From: a virus
Taxonomy: Duplodnaviria > Caudoviricetes
IMG/VR virus record: IMGVR_UViG_3300020577_012633
Coordinates: 59,216 to 123,215 of that record
DNA: 64,000 nucleotides
Direction: 5' to 3' (one strand)
Shown here: in pieces, positions 4,648 through 63,600 of the stretch
How positions within the stretch are numbered: the stretch's first letter is position 1
How the letters are laid out: each line of letters begins with the position of its first letter
Position numbers and translations under genes: made by a program
The notes under the pieces: generated by a model
The model's database searches: none
Seen by the model: only the letters and a program-made list of their open reading frames with translations
What the model was told of the DNA's origin: nothing

Positions 4648-5306
4648 TAGGATCTCATCCTTAGTCCTTCAACAGCCCATTTTCCACTAACAAACTGTGG
4701 ATTTAATATTTCATGTTTCAAACCAATCGTAACGATACTACAATTCCCAGGAGTATCAATTGAGTCAAATTGCTCAACTGACAAATGCATAAATCTCATT
4801 ACAAAACATTTAATAATCATGCCGTGAGTAACAATTACAACGTCTTTCGTTGAGCCGTTTGGACCAATTTTTCTTTTCAGTTGTCTCATCATTGAATCAA
4901 GGAAGGTTGCGCATCGCTCAAAGCAATCTGCTCCGCTTTCGCCACCATCCATACGATACCAAAAGAAACCTTCATGTTCTCTTTTGTCTTTTTGGCTTTC
5001 AGGATCTCCATAGCCAAAATCAACCTCTCGCAAACGAGGATCTTCATAGACTCTTAGATTGTCTGTGTCTTCAGTAAAACCTGCTCCAACTTTTATGAAA
5101 TGCATTGTTTGTCTTGTTCTTTTGTAAGGAGAACAATATAGTAATGAGTCCTGTAGGAATTCTTTTCCTAGTAATTTGCCAGCATTTAAAGCTTGATCTA
5201 CGCCTTCAGGTTCCACAATAGGAATCTGATGGTTTGGCATATCTTGATGCTTAATAAGCTTAGCATTTAATGCAGAAAGAGCATGACGCACAAGTTTAAT
5301 CTGCAT
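4647..5306 (-). CDS. Histidine phosphatase (phosphoglycerate mutase family)
   Basis: LVRHA, SPYKRTRQT, LREVDFG, GES, VTHG. Confidence 0.9.
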   Translation of the reverse strand: MQIKLVRHALSALNAKLIKHQDMPNHQIPIVEPEGVDQALNAGKLLGKEFLQDSLLYCSPYKRTRQTMHFIKVGAGFTEDTDNLRVYEDPRLREVDFGYGDPESQKDKREHEGFFWYRMDGGESGADCFERCATFLDSMMRQLKRKIGPNGSTKDVVIVTHGMIIKCFVMRFMHLSVEQFDSIDTPGNCSIVTIGLKHEILNPQFVSGKWAVEGLRMRS

Positions 5307-5938
5307 GATATTTATCCAAGTTTCGCAGGATCAAAATTAAACTGTTTTTTGTATTTTACTTTAAGATCCTCGAAAACTTCTTTCGAGATCTGTTCCCATT
5401 CTGATTGCTTAATTCCTTTTACACCTTGAACACTTGAAACAAAATCAGTAGTTCCACTTATCATAAAATCTGAGGGCAAATAAATATTTGCAATAAGCAT
5501 TTTTGTATTATTTTCATCGTTCATGAATCCCATTACATACAAAAGAGCAGGGTTTTGATTTTCTGTATTTTTAAACTTATAAAAACAACCTTCTTTAAAG
5601 TTGTAGACACGAGTAGTTGGATCATCTTTTGTTGGGTCTATATTATCTGTGCCGCAATCTTCGCATGGATAAGACTGAGGATGTCTTTTTTGTACTACAG
5701 TACAATCTTCGTCTCCATACTTACAACCATGAACGATGCAACAATGTTCTGTGTGAACGTCTTTAGCCATTGTTGTTTTTTCTTTTCTGTATAAGTATGC
5801 CAAGAACAGAATCGGCACGGACAGCAAGTATTTTATCATATACCCCTGTTTCTTTATTCCAAACAGGAACATGAAGCATTTTTACCGTCTTAGCCTCGGT
5901 TCTGCAAATAGGACAGATTTTGGTTTCTTGTTTTTCCA

Positions 5939-33123: not shown

Positions 33124-33463
33124 TTATATTTCCTTGATCTTTTTGCATTTTATTTATACCGATAACATCTTGAAATAGCTTTATTGAGGCTTTACTTCCT
33201 CCAGCAATAGCAGCAGCAGTTAGAATAAAACCAAGAGTTTTAACTCCTTGAGTATTTGTCATAAAAGATATTACATCTATTTGCCAAAGTTTACATACAA
33301 AAAAGCAAACAGAAAATGCTATAATTTCTTTTATAGCTTTATTCTTTATAAGTTTTATTATATGTTTTTGTTCAAATACTAAAGCTAGTGACCTTTCTAC
33401 AAGGACTGCCAATATTGTTAATAACATAAAAGAATCAAGTATTGCAGTGGTGTTTATTTGCAT
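33104..33463 (-). CDS. Small membrane protein (holin-like)
   Basis: About 3 hydrophobic segments, AGGSK motif. Confidence 0.45.
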   Translation of the reverse strand: MQINTTAILDSFMLLTILAVLVERSLALVFEQKHIIKLIKNKAIKEIIAFSVCFFVCKLWQIDVISFMTNTQGVKTLGFILTAAAIAGGSKASIKLFQDVIGINKMQKDQGNINEIRQN

Positions 33464-34012
33464 ATATTCCCTTTTGTTTAGGCAATAAATCTCTAAGTCT
33501 TTATATTCAAGACAAAAAGATTAACAACCTCCAAGGAAATATCTATCAATTATGATGGAATCTATTACCCATATTCCAGGATCTAGGCCAAGGACATACA
33601 AAAATATCCCATAATTCATGCCTATAAACAAAAAGACCGACTCCGCTACCATCAGGAATCTTCGGAGGAGGGCTTTCTATATTTAGGCCATTATTTACAG
33701 ATTCTTCGTATTGATCACGAAAATCTTGATCTGCTATATCTTGTTTTCTTTGGTTCCCGCCCAAGCAATATTCGCAACGACAGCGCCAAGAATATCTACG
33801 ATCCTTGCACTGTCCTTTTTTTCTTGCTTGTTCTTGCGCGTTATATCTACGAAAAAACCAGGATTCTGGAGTTCCATGATATCCACAAAACAACTGACGA
33901 AATCGTTTTTCAGCAACGATTCGCGTTCTAAATCGACGTTCAGCTCTGTTCATTCATTTTTCCTTTGTAAGTTAAACAACCTACAAAGGAGCAAATGTTA
34001 TCCACCTTTTCA

Positions 34013-36698: not shown

Positions 36699-36835
36699 AG
36701 GGGTTGACGGGACTCGAACCCGCATCTTCTTCGTTATGAACAGATGCTTTCGGCTTATTACGCCTTTTCCTTGGAGTCTTTTCTAGAACTTATGATCACT
36801 AGATTCTAGATATCCCTCGCTTAAGCTACAACCCC
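36699..36835 (-). tRNA. tRNA-Met(CAT)-like with ~60-nt D-loop insert and a weak anticodon stem
   Basis: GGGGTTG/CAACCCC acceptor, T arm GCGGG-TTCGAGT-CCCGT, loop TTCATAA. Confidence 0.6.
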
Positions 36836-40612: not shown

Positions 40613-40740
40613 TGGACGAGAAGGAATTGAACCTTCAATCTTTGATCGGCGGACCTGCAAAGGTTGTCTAGTTTTCACCAGACTGCGAAGTGAGAGCGGC
40701 AGGTTCCTAATTCAATGTTCTACCTTTGAACTAATCGTCC
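40613..40740 (-). ncRNA. tRNA-like RNA with the anticodon arm replaced by a large structured domain
   Basis: GGACGA/TCGTCC acceptor, D arm GTTC-AAAGGTA-GAAC, T arm GAAGG-TTCAATT-CCTTC. Confidence 0.7.
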
Positions 40741-49193: not shown

Positions 49194-49286
49194 CGGTTGA
49201 GGTTGGTATCGAAACCAACTAATCCAATAATCTTTGTTCGTCGGCCTATTTACATAGACATAGATTTGAAGAAAGATTTCTCAACC
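49194..49286 (-). ncRNA. tRNA-like RNA (acceptor + T arm only) with Y-RNA-like motif
   Basis: GGTTGAG/CTCAACC, GTTGG-TTTCGATA-CCAAC, internal GGCCGA-N8-GATTATTG. Confidence 0.6.
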
Positions 49287-49290
49287 AAAA

Positions 49291-49412
49291 TCGCTTCGGA
49301 CGGGATTCGAACCCGCCAACCTCTTCATTATGAGTGATAACCGTCAACAATCGACCTATTCGGTATGTTGGAGTCAACGGGCTTTAGCGCTCTACCATTG
49401 AGCTACGAAGCG
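49291..49412 (-). tRNA. tRNA-Met(CAT) with 48-nt Y-RNA-like insert in the anticodon stem
   Basis: CGCTTCG/CGAAGCG, D arm, CT[insert]TCA-CTCATAA-TGAAG, T arm. Confidence 0.75.
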
Positions 49413-49416
49413 AAAA

Positions 49417-49487
49417 TTGCTAGGAAGGAGTCGAACCTTCATCTCCAAGTTAAAAGCCTGGAATGTTACCAATTACAACACTAGCTA
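49417..49487 (-). tRNA. Atypical tRNA-Lys(TTT)-like
   Basis: TCCAGG-CTTTTAA-CTTGGA and T arm; imperfect acceptor, no clear 8-9 linker. Confidence 0.55.
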
Positions 49488-49642: not shown

Positions 49643-50410
49643 TTAATTCGCAAATAATTCCTTCACTTGCAAAGCTGTAGATCGAACACTTCTGAACAGA
49701 TTCAACTGAGGCTCAATAATGTCATAATACAGATCATCAAGCTTATCCTTTTCAACATCCTCAGGGATAGAACTCTTCTCAAGTTCAATTGGCACTTGAG
49801 CATCCAGTTCTTCATAACGAGCTTTTACAACTTCAACAGGAATCTCTCCATGACGAACCTGACGAAGAAAATCCGCGTTAGGCCTAGGAAAAGTAATCGT
49901 GCCTGTCTGTAGAAGCTCAATACACTCTTCAAGCAATCTTACTGCATGGTAAGCATTCTTAATACTGTAACCATAAGCAACAATATGCTCTTTACGTTGC
50001 GCTCCAAGTTTTCTCATTTGCTCGAAATAATCTACAGCCTTTTTCCACTCTCCAAAAGCAAAACCCTGCATTGGCTTAATAAGCTTTTTAGAAACAAATA
50101 GATGTTTATTATCAATTAGTTTCTGACCAGCTTCAGTAATTTCAAGAATATGTTCTTTCGGCGCAAAAAGAATTTCTGCCGTATTAGGACTGAAACGTTC
50201 AAGCAAGTTAAAAAACTTAGGAAAAGACCATATTACTGTATCTGGATCTTTACTTTCATACTGATCCCAGTGACGACGGCCAAGAAGATATTCAGCATAA
50301 GGCACCGCAAAACCGCGAGTATCAATGTCGCTTGTTGGCGTGCTACATCCATAAAGATGAGAACCAGTTCTGACTAGCAAGTCTGGTCTCTTATAAAAAT
50401 CAGCTATCAT
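49643..50410 (-). CDS. Pol-beta superfamily nucleotidyltransferase (RlaP/YcgL-like)
   Basis: GSHLYG..TPTSDIDTRG, PN..EIL, HAVRLL. Confidence 0.85.
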   Translation of the reverse strand: MIADFYKRPDLLVRTGSHLYGCSTPTSDIDTRGFAVPYAEYLLGRRHWDQYESKDPDTVIWSFPKFFNLLERFSPNTAEILFAPKEHILEITEAGQKLIDNKHLFVSKKLIKPMQGFAFGEWKKAVDYFEQMRKLGAQRKEHIVAYGYSIKNAYHAVRLLEECIELLQTGTITFPRPNADFLRQVRHGEIPVEVVKARYEELDAQVPIELEKSSIPEDVEKDKLDDLYYDIIEPQLNLFRSVRSTALQVKELFAN

Positions 50411-50502: not shown

Positions 50503-51071
50503 TCAAGGTGACAGGATTCGAACCTGCGGACTCGTGGACCCTACCATATAAAATCATTAGCCCATTTAATATTCTTTTTTTGCCCGTTTTTAGGCTTTTC
50601 AATTCTCACGCATAACATTCTTTTATTTTCAAATTGTTCTGGCCCAAAACACAGGATTTTATCTATTTTTGGAACATAAACAAGAACTAAATCAATATCT
50701 TTTGAAGAATAAGTATCATGTTTATATTTAGTAAGAGCTGTTTTTCTTGCCATTTCAATTCTAACAGAACCTTCACTATCTTTAGATACTTTCCCGTCTC
50801 CATATTTACATTGAATCTTTAGTATTTTGCCATTATTTTCAATAAGTAAATCGTACACTGATTCTGTTGTGGGTATTGATACTATGAAATCTTTTTCCAT
50901 AGCTCTTTGTTGTATCTTAAGCACTGCTAACTGACCTTTATTATTTGTATTCATTTAAATTCCTATATTAGTATTAGAACCTTGTGGTATAGTTACATAG
51001 GGTTATTGAATATCCTTCTTATACAAATAAAATTACTAACCACGCACTCTACCAAGCTGAGCTACACCCTG
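50503..51071 (-). tRNA. Split tRNA-Pro (reconstructed AGG); halves 51036-51071 and 50503-50543
   Basis: Halves join to CGTGG-TTAGGGT-CCACG; TAG duplicated at the junctions. Confidence 0.8.
50541..50954 (-). CDS. PD-(D/E)XK endonuclease (I-Ssp6803I-like family)
   Basis: KGQLA, VSIP...YDLLIE..KIQCKY, IDLVLVY. Confidence 0.8.
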   Translation of the reverse strand: MNTNNKGQLAVLKIQQRAMEKDFIVSIPTTESVYDLLIENNGKILKIQCKYGDGKVSKDSEGSVRIEMARKTALTKYKHDTYSSKDIDLVLVYVPKIDKILCFGPEQFENKRMLCVRIEKPKNGQKKNIKWANDFIW

Positions 51072-52161: not shown

Positions 52162-52288
52162 CTGACAAATATAGGGCCGTATCTAGGAGTTTCAGAATAC
52201 TGGAAGCCATTGCTGGATAGTCTCTTTATCTGAGTCATAAAGACCACTTCTACGCATAATGTTAACCTAGAAAACATCGACTTGTCAG
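52162..52288 (-). ncRNA. Y-RNA-like ncRNA
   Basis: CTGACAAGT/ATTTGTCAG closing stem, GTCGA-N9-GGTTAACA. Confidence 0.65.
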
Positions 52289-52749: not shown

Positions 52750-53500
52750 TTACTTCAATATGATATCAAGATTTCCCTTTATAACATCTTTGATATCATA
52801 TGTTTTCTTGCCTGTCAAATGATCAGAAACATAGCCCTTATAGAAACAATAAGTTCTTCTAGCTCCGCCTCTTCCTGTATTGCTGAGAATGTTTTTACGC
52901 TTTTCAGCATAATCCTTATTTTGTTCAGCAAACTTCATTTCTTGAATACGTCCGCACAGAAGCTCATAAGCATGAGCTTTATTCTGCTGAGGAGAACGAT
53001 GAACCTGAGACTTAACAAAGATTCCTGTTGGAATATGTTTCATTCTACATGCACTCTTGCATGTATTAACTCCTTGACCACCTGGTCCTGAAGCATTTTG
53101 AAACATAATCTCAATGTCTTCGTCTCTAATAATCGCTCCTTTGAAAGCAAATATTGGCAAGATTCCAACTGTTACAGTTGAAGTATGACGACGACCGCTT
53201 CTTTCGGAAGGAGGACATCTTTGAACAACATGCTTGCCTGATTCATTTTCAAAAGCAGATAATACATTTTTACCGCTTATTTCAAGAGTAGAAGAACCGT
53301 AATCAACATCAACAATCGAAATGGTTAGGTTCTTCTTTGTTGCGTATCTAACATATATTTCGGAGAGTTCGTGAACAAAGTTTTTAGCATCTTCTCCACC
53401 CTCTCCTGCTCTTATTTCAATAAGAATAGAAGAAGGGTCAAAGAGACTCCTGTGCCTTATGCTGAAGGCCATCGTTCCAGCGATTTCTGTTACTATTCAT
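52750..53500 (-). CDS. Class I peptide release factor homolog (lacks domain 1) with a predicted +1 programmed frameshift
   Basis: EIRAGEGG, GRRHTS, GPGGQ; AGGAG-TCT-CTT-TGA-C at 53451-53437 in frame with ATG 53500. Confidence 0.85.
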
Positions 53501-54811: not shown

Positions 54812-54872
54812 ACCAGTATGTTTGTGAAATAAGGGGTACGTTACAAGTGATAACCTTATTTCTTCGACTGGT
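54812..54872 (-). ncRNA. Minimal Y-RNA-like hairpin
   Basis: ACCAGT-CGAA-GAAATAAGG...CCTTATTTC-ACAAACAT-ACTGGT. Confidence 0.65.
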
Positions 54873-55742: not shown

Positions 55743-55814
55743 AGCGGCTTCAGGGATCGAACCTAACTTGGGAGATAATGACTCTCCCCAGACCACCAAG
55801 GCCTAGCCAACCGC
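55743..55814 (-). ncRNA. Atypical tRNA-like RNA (6-bp D stem, loop GTCATTA)
   Basis: GCGGTT/AGCCGC, TAGGCC/GGTCTG, GGAGA/TCTCC, GGTTCGATCC. Confidence 0.55.
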
Positions 55815-56645: not shown

Positions 56646-56790
56646 AGCTAGTATATTTAATTGGTCTGGGGTTAGCTCTCTAATCTTTCGACTTTGAGAG
56701 GTGCCTTACCGTTAGGCTACCCCGCCATATTTTCAAAAGGCGGGGATAAGATTTGAACTTATAATGTTAACCCATTCCATTCGACTAGCT
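56646..56790 (-). ncRNA. YrlA-like Y RNA (circularly permuted tRNA mimic)
   Basis: Order: stem with GTCGAATG, T arm, closed acceptor CCCCGCC/GGCGGGG, D arm, 3' stem. Confidence 0.8.
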
Positions 56791-59740: not shown

Positions 59741-59883
59741 TGGAGACGGTAGGAGTCGAACCTACAATAGTCCTTATCGGACAACCCGGTGTACAGTCGG
59801 GCTTGCTCGCCTTTTCTTTAGCATAATACAACTGATTATTCTAAAGATTGGAACTCGCTTTAGCTTATCCTTGCCGCGTCCCC
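59741..59883 (-). tRNA. tRNA-Tyr(GTA) with large D-arm insert
   Basis: GGGGACG/CGTCTCC, loop CTGTACA, variable arm GTCC/GGAC, T arm. Confidence 0.7.
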
Positions 59884-61835: not shown

Positions 61836-61908
61836 TAGCGATACCAGGACTCGAACCTGATACTCAGTCTTATGAGGACTGCGCGTTTGCCCGTTACGCC
61901 ATATCGCC
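61836..61908 (-). tRNA. tRNA-Met/Ile2(CAT)
   Basis: CAGTC-CTCATAA-GACTG. Confidence 0.9.
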
Positions 61909-63528: not shown

Positions 63529-63600
63529 AGTTCTCTCAGAGACTCGAACTCTGCTAACTGGGATACAAATCCAGCCCCTCGCCATCTAGGGTTAGAGAAC
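63529..63600 (-). tRNA. tRNA-Thr(TGT)
   Basis: Loop TTTGTAT, cloverleaf. Confidence 0.85.

What the first reader, a model, noticed from the sequence alone, without database searches (positions are those of the whole stretch)
49291..49412. tRNA-Met with a 48-nt Y-RNA-like helix inserted in its anticodon stem
Seen: a complete tRNA whose 5' anticodon strand reads CT[AAAGCCCGTTGAC...ACC GAATA GGT CGA..GTTGACGGTTA]TCA (insert 49338-49385), with an intact CTCATAA loop. This is the un-permuted counterpart of the RNA at 56646. Inference: either a tRNA/Y-RNA chimera that could still be aminoacylated, or a short protein-spliced intron at position 28/29.
Basis: partly seen in the sequence, partly recalled or inferred. 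Interest (0 to 1): 0.75.

Follow-up and report, generated by a model that had tools for sequence, protein, structure and literature searches.

The report
tRNA-shaped Y RNA with Ro60 handle
A giant phage carries a complete methionine-tRNA-shaped RNA gene with an extra conserved arm growing out of its anticodon stem; the arm matches the handle by which bacterial Y RNAs are thought to dock the Ro60 protein, so this looks like a new tRNA-order form of Y RNA, not an ordinary or intron-bearing tRNA.

Summary
On the minus strand, 49412-49291 is a 122-nt cloverleaf. Deleting exactly 49385-49338 makes ARAGORN call a 74-nt tRNA-Met(CAU).

The 48 nt are a conserved structured arm between tRNA positions 28 and 29. 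The arm has an outer helix, an asymmetric internal loop and a small hairpin ending in GGU, followed by CGAUUG...GGUUAUC. This handle (GUCGA-N10/11-GGUUAWC) occurs 9 times on the transcribed strand of the 123-kb phage record and once on the other strand. Four copies lie just upstream of the phage Ro60 (rsr) gene. One of those four is a clear paralogue with the same arm at the same position.

I parsed 13 members: 11 from phage contigs and 2 from bacterial MAGs. In all 13 the split anticodon stem is paired in 65 of 65 cells, with compensatory changes at all 5 pairs. Four of five further carrier records encode Ro60, usually next to the RNA.

This copy sits behind rlaP (an RNA-repair nucleotidyltransferase) in a tRNA-Lys / this RNA / mini Y-like RNA cluster.

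Best reading (about 0.6): an unspliced Y RNA in normal tRNA gene order, with a free acceptor end and an anticodon loop. A spliced intron is unlikely. Whether it can be charged is open. No expression data could be obtained. The scan had already noted the rsr-adjacent paralogue elsewhere in this genome.

The parts
49291..49412 (-). Whole 122-nt tRNA-shaped RNA (5' end at 49412, discriminator A at 49291)
   Evidence: Sequence; fold; ARAGORN tRNA-Met after deleting the arm; covariation in homologues
49406..49412 (-). Acceptor stem 5' strand CGCUUCG; pairs with 49292-49298 (CGAAGCG)
   Evidence: 7/7 pairs here and in all homologues, with compensatory changes
49389..49403 (-). D arm GCUC-AAUGGUA-GAGC (G18 G19 present)
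   Evidence: D stem covaries (GCUC/GAGC versus GUGU/GCAC)
49386..49387 (-). Anticodon-stem nucleotides 27-28 (CU); they pair across the arm with A42 G43 (49323-49324)
   Evidence: Cross-junction pairs hold in 26/26 cells of 13 members, against 6-15/26 when slid by 1-2 nt; pair types include C-G, U-A, G-C, A-U and U-G
49338..49385 (-). 48-nt extra arm: linker AAAGC, outer helix 5' strand CCGUUGAC (49373-49380), loop UCCAACAU, hairpin ACC-GAAUA-GGU (49354-49364), CGAUU, outer helix 3' strand GUUGACGG (49341-49348), UUA
   Evidence: Folds on its own. A 20-nt core is kept in homologues apart from one U/C change in the hairpin loop, while the outer helix changes with compensation. The same architecture appears in most of the 13 members
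49336..49355 (-). Handle GUCGAUUG-UUGAC-GGUUAUC (Ro60/Rsr-docking-like motif); its last two bases are nucleotides 29-30 of the anticodon stem
   Evidence: 9 copies on the minus strand of the record, 1 on the plus strand, shuffles mean 1.8; 4 copies just upstream of rsr; the nearest is GUCGAUUGAAGACGGUUAUC. Resembles GNCGAAN0-1G of YrlA (PMC4201824)
49323..49337 (-). Lower anticodon stem UCA / loop CUCAUAA (anticodon CAU at 49330-49332) / 3' strand UGAAG
   Evidence: UCAUA of the loop is kept in L131-L134 while all three lower stem pairs change
49299..49322 (-). Variable region AGGUU(G), T arm GCGGG-UUCGAAU-CCCGU (49300-49316), extra C at 49299
49416..49487 (-). tRNA-Lys(UUU), 3 nt (UUU) upstream of the RNA: same cluster
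49194..49286 (-). Second, smaller Y-like RNA 4 nt (UUUU) downstream: acceptor stem, handle-like arm (hairpin + GCCGACGA...GAUUAU) and T-like arm, with no D arm or anticodon hairpin
   Evidence: homologues sit behind rlaP in L131 and L135
49643..50410 (-). rlaP (PF10127, RNA-ligase-associated Pol-beta nucleotidyltransferase), immediately upstream on the same strand
   Evidence: Pfam E 2e-14; the rlaP-then-RNA order is conserved in 8 related contigs

Best explanation
The locus encodes a stable ~122-nt non-coding RNA: a Y RNA built in normal tRNA gene order.

The proposed pathway is as follows. It is probably transcribed together with tRNA-Lys(UUU) and a smaller Y-like RNA, then released by tRNA end-processing, because it has a real acceptor stem and only 3-4 nt U-spacers. 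It folds as a tRNA L-shape. A 48-nt arm branches from the 5' strand of the anticodon stem between nucleotides 28 and 29.

The arm is the handle (helix ACC/GGU, then CGAUUG, outer helix, GGUUAUC) that docks the phage's Ro60/Rsr ring. The tRNA-Met-like body has a free acceptor end and a canonical-looking CAU anticodon loop. It serves as the head that presents Rsr to tRNA-binding partners or gates the ring. Candidate partners are exonucleases such as PNPase, as in known Ro60-Y RNA complexes, or the phage's own tRNA-repair enzymes RlaP and RtcB.

Shown here: the structure, its conservation and covariation, homology of the handle to the rsr-linked RNAs, and co-occurrence with rsr.

Inferred: that the arm is retained, that Rsr binds it, and which partner the tRNA head recruits.
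For: (1) Complete cloverleaf. Every stem is paired in the 8 close homologues and paralogues. The split anticodon stem is paired in 65/65 cells of 13 members, with double changes at all 5 pairs. The two pairs that bridge the arm hold in 26/26 cells, against 6-15/26 when slid.

(2) The arm is conserved and structured. A 20-nt core (AACAUACCGAAYAGGUCGAU) is kept, apart from one U/C change in the hairpin loop, between this window and L131-L134 while the flanking helix changes with compensation. Most of the 13 inserts fold alone into the same helix / asymmetric loop / hairpin-GGU-CGA layout.

(3) The handle GUCGA-N10/11-GGUUAWC occurs 9 times on the transcribed strand, once on the other strand, and 1.8 times on average in shuffles. 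Four copies lie directly upstream of rsr, one differing from ours at 2 of 20 positions.

(4) A paralogue with the same arm at the same position lies just upstream of rsr in this genome, and in three related phages.

(5) The genome encodes Rsr/TROVE and RtcB, and rlaP is the adjacent gene.

(6) Further members, found with a strict pattern, come from other huge phages and two bacterial MAGs. TROVE is present in 4 of 5 of those records. In L311, L361 and L362 the RNA is within about 1-2 kb of rsr.

(7) Literature. The YrlA motif GNCGAAN0-1G is proposed as the Rsr contact (PMC4201824). A phage Ro60 binds phage Y-like RNAs that carry a CGAA motif and forms a complex with host PNPase (PMC12135203). 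Jumbo phages pair RtcB, RlaP and TROVE with a tRNA-like partner (PMC7824862).
Against:
- The motif reads CGAU, not the published CGAA.
- The Rfam YrlA model gives only 23.8 bits against a 69-bit threshold, and that match spans the neighbouring tRNA-Lys T arm.
- This copy is about 76 kb from rsr in the record.
- The anticodon loop (U33, CAU, A37), A73, G2:C71 and C3:G70 are kept in this subfamily. That would also fit an RNA recognised as tRNA-Met.
- Part of the pairing statistics is by construction: acceptor and D stems were required by my parser, and the anticodon parse chose among four variable-loop lengths.
Confidence: 0.6

Rival explanations
1. It is a working, chargeable tRNA-Met that keeps the arm. 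MetRS charges it after CCA addition. The arm then recruits or shields it with Rsr, for example to protect a phage tRNA from host anticodon nucleases, or to bring Rsr to the translation or repair machinery.
For: Canonical 7-nt loop with U33, CAU and A37. UCAUA is kept while the stem below it changes at all three pairs. A73, G2:C71 and C3:G70 are shared with the phage's ordinary tRNA-Met at 61836-61908; that these are MetRS identity elements is from my own knowledge. Other members have loops that read as UUG, UGC, GUU and GUA with U33. The acceptor end is free, unlike YrlA.
Against: An extra nucleotide between the T stem and the acceptor stem gives a non-canonical stack. A 48-nt arm on the anticodon stem is unknown in decoding tRNAs. 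The rsr-adjacent paralogues have C37 or A33/A34 loops that are unlikely to decode. The record already has a canonical tRNA-Met.
Confidence: 0.15
2. The 48 nt are an intron. A phage or host endonuclease removes them, RtcB joins the halves, and an ordinary 74-nt tRNA-Met results.
For: Clean excision restores a tRNA that ARAGORN accepts. The genome encodes RtcB. The conserved core could be a recognition site.
Against: - No bulge-helix-bulge can be drawn at the junctions (by inspection).
- No tRNA_int_endo domain in this record or in three related records carrying family members, two of them 98-100% complete.
- 48 nt is too short for a group I or II intron, and there is no Rfam ribozyme hit.
- The same handle occurs in RNAs without tRNA exons.
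- The conserved handle runs 2 nt into the supposed exon.
- Spliced paralogues would carry non-tRNA loops.
Confidence: 0.07
3. The arm is a real conserved module, but its partner is not Rsr. It could be RlaP, RtcB or an RNase, or the arm could be a processing or stability element for the tRNA cluster.
For: This copy is next to rlaP, not rsr, in 5 contigs. Binding to Rsr is inferred from motif likeness only.
Against: Four handle copies lie in front of rsr here, and similar arrays precede rsr in relatives. Unrelated carriers have the RNA next to rsr.
Confidence: 0.12
4. It is a decaying tRNA gene disrupted by a small inserted repeat, with no function.
For: tRNA finders do not call it.
Against: All stems, including the split one, are kept by compensatory changes across diverged phages. 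The insert core is almost invariant. The exact 122 nt occur only once in the record.
Confidence: 0.03

Closest known systems
YrlA (Y RNA-like A; Rfam RF02553; Chen et al. 2014, PMC4201824; structure preprint 10.1101/312249)
   Same: tRNA-like D and T arms with tRNA tertiary nucleotides. A GNCGA-type motif followed by a helix strand and a YUAY-like UUAU leading to the T arm. Found in genomes that encode Ro60/Rsr, including phages, and linked to RtcB-type RNA repair.
   Different: YrlA is circularly permuted. Its 5' and 3' ends lie in the handle, its acceptor stem is a closed loop, and it has no anticodon loop and no free CCA end (10.1101/312249). Here the gene order is that of a tRNA. The acceptor end is open, an anticodon hairpin with CAU is kept, and the handle is closed by its own hairpin as a fifth arm. 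The Rfam model does not reach threshold. The motif reads GUCGAUUG, not GNCGAAN0-1G.
Deinococcus radiodurans Yrn1 Y RNA
   Same: T-like and partial D-like elements with an 'anticodon arm' between them in tRNA order (PMC4201824). It binds Rsr and tethers PNPase.
   Different: In Yrn1 the Rsr-binding stem is formed by the RNA ends, at the acceptor position. Its D arm is incomplete and its loop has 6 nt. Here the acceptor stem is a normal tRNA acceptor and the handle is an added arm.
Thermus phage phiLo Yrl1/Yrl2 with phage Ro60 (PMC12135203)
   Same: Phage-encoded Y-like RNAs beside a phage Ro60, with a CGAA-type motif in an internal loop. Binding has been shown experimentally in that phage.
   Different: Those RNAs are stem-bulge-stem RNAs with paired ends. 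The text I searched has no mention of 'tRNA-like' or 'YrlA' for them.
Archaeal tRNA genes with introns at non-canonical positions (bulge-helix-bulge introns)
   Same: An insert inside a tRNA stem whose removal restores a standard tRNA.
   Different: No BHB motif and no splicing endonuclease found. The insert is a conserved protein-handle-like module shared with non-tRNA RNAs.
The rsr-adjacent tRNA-shaped Y RNA of the same phage
   Same: Clear paralogue: same D arm type, same arm at position 28/29, same handle.
   Different: That copy has a non-canonical loop (CUAUCCA) and a normal 7+5 acceptor/T stack, and lies next to rsr. This copy has a canonical CAU loop and an extra nucleotide at the T/acceptor junction, and lies next to rlaP.

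Membership tests
Canonical tRNA (Rfam RF00005) | Four-stem cloverleaf supported by covariation | tested here: met
   All 21 stem pairs are paired in 8 close relatives, and the anticodon stem in 65/65 cells of 13 members. Acceptor and D pairing were partly imposed by the parser.
Canonical tRNA (Rfam RF00005) | Continuous anticodon stem and 70-95 nt length, so that tRNA models detect it | tested here: not met
   Not called by ARAGORN with or without its intron option, nor by the Rfam tRNA model even at E<=10. It is called only after the 48 nt are removed.
Canonical tRNA (Rfam RF00005) | 7-bp acceptor stacked on a 5-bp T stem with no intervening nucleotide | tested here: not met
   Extra C at 49299 (A or C in L131-L134) between the T stem and the acceptor 3' strand. 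The rsr-adjacent paralogues lack it.
Canonical tRNA (Rfam RF00005) | Conserved tertiary nucleotides (U8, A14, G18 G19, U54 U55 C56, A58, 15:48 pair) | tested here: met
   UA at 8-9, D loop AAUGGUA, T loop UUCGAAU, and A15 with U48 at the end of the variable region.
Canonical tRNA (Rfam RF00005) | Aminoacylation and use in decoding | not testable with these tools
YrlA / bacterial Y RNA (Rfam RF02553) | Covariance-model score at or above the gathering threshold (69 bits) | tested here: not met
   Best match is 23.8 bits, model positions 28-81 only, spanning the T arm of tRNA-Lys and the D arm of this RNA.
YrlA / bacterial Y RNA (Rfam RF02553) | GNCGAAN0-1G motif in the Rsr-binding stem | tested here: inconclusive
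   Here the motif is GUCGAUUG, with U for A at position 6. The same 8-mer occurs in a Y-like RNA directly upstream of rsr. Paralogues in L272 and G004 read GUCGAAUG and GUCGAACG.
YrlA / bacterial Y RNA (Rfam RF02553) | tRNA-like D and T arms | tested here: met
YrlA / bacterial Y RNA (Rfam RF02553) | Circularly permuted order: ends in the handle, acceptor stem closed by a loop, no anticodon loop | tested here: not met
   Open acceptor stem formed by the RNA ends, the handle closed by its own hairpin, and a 7-nt anticodon loop present. The YrlA features are from 10.1101/312249.
YrlA / bacterial Y RNA (Rfam RF02553) | Encoded in a genome with Ro60/Rsr, usually next to it | tested here: met
   rsr is present in the record. 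This copy is about 76 kb away, but its paralogue is adjacent. Other family members lie within 1-2 kb of rsr.
YrlA / bacterial Y RNA (Rfam RF02553) | Physical binding to Ro60/Rsr | not testable with these tools
   Needs EMSA or a pull-down.
Protein-spliced (BHB) tRNA intron | Bulge-helix-bulge: two 3-nt bulges separated by a 4-bp helix at the exon-intron junctions | tested here: not met
   Both junctions flank the base of one helix at a multi-helix junction (linkers AAAGC and UUA). No 4-bp helix between intron and 3' exon can be drawn (inspection).
Protein-spliced (BHB) tRNA intron | Splicing endonuclease available | tested here: not met
   PF01974 is absent from this record and from three related records carrying family members, two of them 98-100% complete. 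A host enzyme cannot be excluded.
Self-splicing group I intron in tRNA | Ribozyme core of about 200 nt or more, inserted in the anticodon loop | tested here: not met
   The insert is 48 nt, lies in the stem rather than the loop, and has no Rfam intron hit.

The most novel reading that the evidence does not exclude
These are chargeable tRNAs carrying a Ro60 docking arm. Family members imitate different tRNA species: loops read as CAU here, and as UUG, UGC, GUU and GUA elsewhere. They would couple the Ro60 ring to particular tRNA identities. They might act as decoys or sentinels for host anticodon nucleases, feeding the phage RlaP/RtcB repair enzymes. Or they might be protected phage tRNAs that still enter translation.
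Probability: 0.15. Interest if true: 0.9.

Novelty: new variant of a known kind. Interest (0 to 1): 0.66.

Why it matters
Known bacterial Y RNAs imitate tRNA but lack exactly the two parts that make a tRNA act as one: a free acceptor end and an anticodon loop. This RNA has both, plus the Ro60-type handle, and it belongs to a family found in several half-megabase phages and at least two bacterial MAGs.

It would give a direct experimental route to the open question of what the tRNA-like head of Y RNAs is for. One can test whether the head is processed by RNase P, given CCA, charged, or cleaved by anticodon nucleases, and whether Ro60 rides along.

It also ties Ro60 to the phage tRNA-repair genes rlaP and rtcB.

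Finally, it warns annotators that tRNA finders miss these genes, or mis-call them as intron-bearing tRNAs; ARAGORN called the L131-L134 homologues tRNA-Phe with an intron.

Tried and rejected
- Two loose DNA pattern scans of viral contigs returned only chance hits and ordinary tRNAs.
- blastn of the neighbourhood against phage GenBank records found nothing.
- The exact 20-mer core in metagenome contigs gave 5 loci. L268 is the L131 type. L267 is a variant with the same 5' half and arm but an unclear 3' half. L265, L266 and L269 look like chance or unrelated contexts.
- An alternative helix UUGACY/GGUCGA, which resembles the vertebrate Y RNA helix, can form here and in the rsr-adjacent paralogues but not in L131-L134. 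I therefore rejected it as the consensus fold.
- A self-contained anticodon hairpin without the two bridging pairs needs a register shift between members and shows no covariation. I rejected it in favour of the split stem.
- RNAalifold proposed a different hairpin for the L131 type (CCUUUC/GAGAGG); the window sequence does not support it.
- The tRNA body is not a recent copy of the phage's own tRNA-Met; the best match among window tRNAs is 75%, to tRNA-Thr.
- The strict pattern scan of bacterial genomes mostly returned ordinary tRNAs (56 matches) and permuted YrlA-like RNAs (43 matches). Only 2 genome hits were of the unpermuted kind.
- I built no covariance model, because MAFFT mis-registers the split stem and the extra nucleotide. 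I parsed the sequences by script instead.

Full report
ORIGIN. The window is bases 59216-123215 of a 123-kb IMG/VR virus record that CheckV rates about 24% complete, so it comes from a phage of roughly half a megabase. The second half of the window is a minus-strand run of small ORFs, a tmRNA and more than 20 tRNA genes.

OBSERVATION. Read on the minus strand, 49412-49291 is a 122-nt RNA with these parts:
- acceptor stem CGCUUCG/CGAAGCG;
- U8 A9;
- D arm GCUC-AAUGGUA-GAGC;
- G26;
- C27 U28;
- a 48-nt insert (49385-49338);
- U29 C30 A31;
- loop CUCAUAA;
- UGAAG;
- variable region AGGUU(G);
- T arm GCGGG-UUCGAAU-CCCGU;
- one extra C;
- the 3' acceptor strand and discriminator A.

ARAGORN, with or without its intron option, and the Rfam tRNA model do not call it. 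When I deleted exactly 49338-49385 in a script, ARAGORN called a 74-nt tRNA-Met(cat). It drew the extra C as an unpaired eighth acceptor position. The insert folds on its own into an 8-bp outer helix (CCGUUGAC/GUUGACGG), an asymmetric internal loop and a 3-bp hairpin ACC-GAAUA-GGU.

HOMOLOGUES BEHIND rlaP. The gene immediately upstream (49643-50410, same strand) is an RlaP nucleotidyltransferase (PF10127). Eight viral contigs encode a 78-85% identical RlaP. In four of them (L131-L134) a 125-126-nt homologue of the RNA follows the gene. ARAGORN mis-calls these homologues as tRNA-Phe with an intron.

The alignment shows compensatory changes in the acceptor, D and T stems and in the outer helix of the insert. 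By contrast, a 20-nt core (AACAUACCGAAYAGGUCGAU) stays the same apart from one U/C change in the hairpin loop. The anticodon-loop bases UCAUA are kept while all three pairs of the lower anticodon stem change (UCA/UGA to CCU/AGG). This rules out a pseudogene or a chance insert.

LINK TO Ro60.
- The record encodes a TROVE-domain Ro60/Rsr protein and RtcB.
- Reading the DNA upstream of rsr, I found several small RNAs with GNCGA motifs.
- One of them (G000 33441-33564) is plainly a paralogue. It has the same D arm type and the same A-rich linker, an outer helix, a hairpin ending in GGU, then CGAUAGG...GGUUAUC, a 7-nt-loop hairpin and the T arm.
- The same kind of RNA lies upstream of rsr in the 494-kb relative G004 and in L276 and L272. 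L272 even has the identical hairpin ACC-GAAUA-GGU followed by CGAAUGG.
- A regular expression for the handle (GNCGA, 3-16 nt, G[GA]UUA[AU]C) hits the transcribed strand of the record 9 times and the other strand once. Shuffles give a mean of 1.8.
- Eight of the nine hits have the same 20-21-nt length. Four are the rsr-upstream RNAs. Four are in this window: 56766-56785, 54849-54868, 52261-52281 and ours at 49336-49355.
- Ours (GUCGAUUGUUGACGGUUAUC) differs at 2 of 20 positions from an rsr-adjacent one.

LIKENESS TO YrlA.
- Chen et al. (PMC4201824) describe GNCGAAN0-1G near the 5' end of YrlA as the likely Rsr contact, and a YUAY that leads to the T arm.
- The Rfam YrlA consensus printed reads acggCGAAUGC...gGgaaCUAc...T arm.
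- Our RNA has GUCGAUUG...GGUUAUC...T arm in the same order.
- The RNA at 56647-56789 in this window is a YrlA-like RNA in permuted order. It has a terminal helix, GUCGAAUG, a T-like arm, a closed acceptor hairpin CCCCGCC/GGCGGGG and a D arm. The Rfam model does not reach E<=10 on it.

IS THE ANTICODON STEM REALLY SPLIT? A local hairpin after the arm is an alternative. I parsed 8 and then 13 members by script. With the arm placed between positions 28 and 29, all five anticodon-stem pairs are standard pairs in 65 of 65 cells. Every pair shows double changes. The two pairs that bridge the arm (27-43, 28-42) are paired in 26 of 26 cells, against 6-15 of 26 when the 5' partners are slid by 1-2 nt. 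They include C-G, U-A, G-C, A-U and U-G types.

Caveats apply. Acceptor and D pairing were conditions of the parser. The anticodon parse picked the best of four variable-loop lengths. The last two T-stem pairs were fixed by the search pattern.

WIDER FAMILY. A strict pattern (GGTCGA, 7-11 nt, GGTTA, 18-32 nt, GGTTCGAATCC) found 49 viral and more than 120 bacterial stretches. Sorting the 140 pattern matches in these stretches gave 56 ordinary tRNAs, 43 permuted YrlA-like RNAs, 15 RNAs in tRNA order with the arm, 18 unclear and 8 cut at a contig end.

The tRNA-order set adds members from other huge phages and from two bacterial MAGs:
- L282 in G004, loop AUUUGGA;
- L294 in a complete 499-kb phage, loop CUUGCAA;
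- L306;
- L311, loop AUGUUAA;
- L361, a Myxococcales MAG;
- L362, loop CUGUAAC.

TROVE is present in 4 of these 5 records. The exception is an 8%-complete fragment. In L311, L361 and L362 the RNA lies within about 1-2 kb of the rsr gene. U33 is present in 12 of 13 loops and a purine at position 37 in 9 of 13. Most inserts fold alone into the same layout. The hairpin always starts with ACC-like bases and ends in GGU or GGGU, but varies from 3 to about 12 bp.

AGAINST AN INTRON.
- No bulge-helix-bulge can be drawn. Both junctions sit at the foot of one helix with linkers AAAGC and UUA.
- No splicing-endonuclease domain was found in this record or in three related records carrying family members, two of them 98-100% complete.
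- The insert is far too short for a self-splicing intron, and Rfam finds no ribozyme.
- The handle is shared with RNAs that have no tRNA exons, and it runs two bases into the 'exon'.
- Removing the arm from the rsr-adjacent paralogues would leave loops such as CUAUCCA or UAUGCAA, which are not tRNA-like.

LOCAL CONTEXT. tRNA-Lys(UUU) ends 3 nt before the RNA. A 93-nt smaller RNA begins 4 nt after it. That RNA has an acceptor stem, a handle-like arm and a T-like arm, with no D arm or anticodon hairpin. The spacers are UUU and UUUU, so the three are probably one precursor cut by tRNA end-processing enzymes (inference). No CCA is encoded.

Published work bears on the neighbours. RlaP is reported to add one or two nucleotides to damaged tRNA 3' ends before ligation (preprint 10.64898/2025.12.29.696909). 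Jumbo phages are noted to combine RtcB, RlaP and a TROVE protein 'with a tRNA-like partner' (PMC7824862). A Thermus phage Ro60 binds phage Y-like RNAs with a CGAA motif and assembles with host PNPase (PMC12135203).

INTERPRETATION. The best-supported reading is a Y RNA in tRNA order. The arm docks Rsr, and the tRNA-Met-like body is the effector-facing head. Structure, conservation, handle homology and rsr co-occurrence are shown. Retention of the arm, Rsr binding and the partner of the head are inferred.

The conserved CAU loop, A73 and the first acceptor pairs leave room for recognition as tRNA-Met, and perhaps charging. The irregular T/acceptor junction and the large arm argue against routine decoding.

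COMPARISON WITH THE KNOWN. [quoted passage not shown] D. radiodurans Yrn1 places the Rsr stem at the acceptor position (PMC4201824). I found no paper describing a Y RNA with an open acceptor stem, an anticodon hairpin and the handle as a fifth arm. The library does not cover all journals.

Earlier notes of this scan describe the rsr-adjacent paralogue and the Y-RNA array in the same genome. I re-read that DNA myself. I find that the paralogue, too, keeps a short anticodon-like hairpin beside the arm; the arm does not simply replace it.

VERDICT. The Y-RNA chimera reading is supported. The intron reading is not supported. Charging is open. This is a new variant of a known kind.

Noticed in passing
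window 49194-49286 (-): A 93-nt RNA 4 nt downstream. It has a 7-bp acceptor stem GGUUGAG/CUCAACC, a long arm with hairpin GUCUAU-GUAA-AUAGGC followed by CGACGAAC...GAUUAU, and a T-like arm, but no D arm or anticodon hairpin. Homologues follow the rlaP-linked RNA in L131 and L135.
   Followed up: partly
window 56647-56789 (-): A YrlA-like RNA in permuted order, with GUCGAAUG after a terminal helix, a closed acceptor hairpin, D and T-like arms, and a second GUCGAAAG in a hairpin loop. The Rfam YrlA model does not reach E<=10 on it.
   Followed up: partly
window 54849-54868 and 52261-52281 (-): Two more copies of the 20-21-nt handle GUCGA...GGUUAWC, lying between tRNA genes. The RNAs around them were not delimited.
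   Followed up: no
window 40613-40740 (-): A 128-nt tRNA-like gene (Rfam tRNA 43 bits). ARAGORN with its intron option calls it tRNA-Pro(agg) with a 57-nt intron. The insert contains GGUCCGCCGAUC.
   Followed up: no
window 36699-36835 (-) and 59741-59883 (-): Two tRNA-like RNAs of 137-143 nt with good acceptor and T arms and large inserts. They share AAAAGGCG...AAGCC(C)GA, which may be another handle variant.
   Followed up: no
window 55743-55814 (-) and 63529-63600 (-): Two 72-nt tRNA-like genes not called by ARAGORN. The first has a 6-bp anticodon stem and loop GUCAUUA (CAU). The second has a 9-nt loop.
   Followed up: no
window 50511-50527 (-) beside 50541-50954 (-): A lone T-arm-like element (GCAGG-UUCGAAU-CCUGU) just downstream of a PD-(D/E)XK endonuclease gene (PF11645, E 2.6e-25). 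It may be a tRNA gene remnant next to a homing-type endonuclease.
   Followed up: no
window 52750-53472 (-): A short (240 aa) release-factor homologue with PCRF and RF-1 domains, in a genome that also has RtcB. By my own reading it might be a PrfH-like ribosome-rescue partner and not a standard release factor.
   Followed up: no
L135:4886-5012 (+) (same in L136-L138): In the 78%-identical rlaP relatives, the RNA behind rlaP has an acceptor stem, a T arm, the extra junction nucleotide and a handle (ACUCC-UUAC-GGAGU-CGAUG...GGAUUAAC). A long hairpin takes the place of a 7-nt anticodon loop.
   Followed up: partly
L282:874-1002 (+), L294, L311, L361, L362: tRNA-order Y-like RNAs whose 7-nt loops read like the anticodon loops of tRNA-Gln (UUG), Ala (UGC), Asn (GUU) and Tyr (GUA). 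Two are in bacterial MAGs (Myxococcales, and an unclassified bacterium) next to rsr.
   Followed up: partly
L267 (minus strand, about 5222-5376 of the reverse complement): A metagenome contig with the same 5' half and arm (core identical) but a 3' half that does not close an acceptor stem. It is followed by a ribosome-binding site and an ORF.
   Followed up: no
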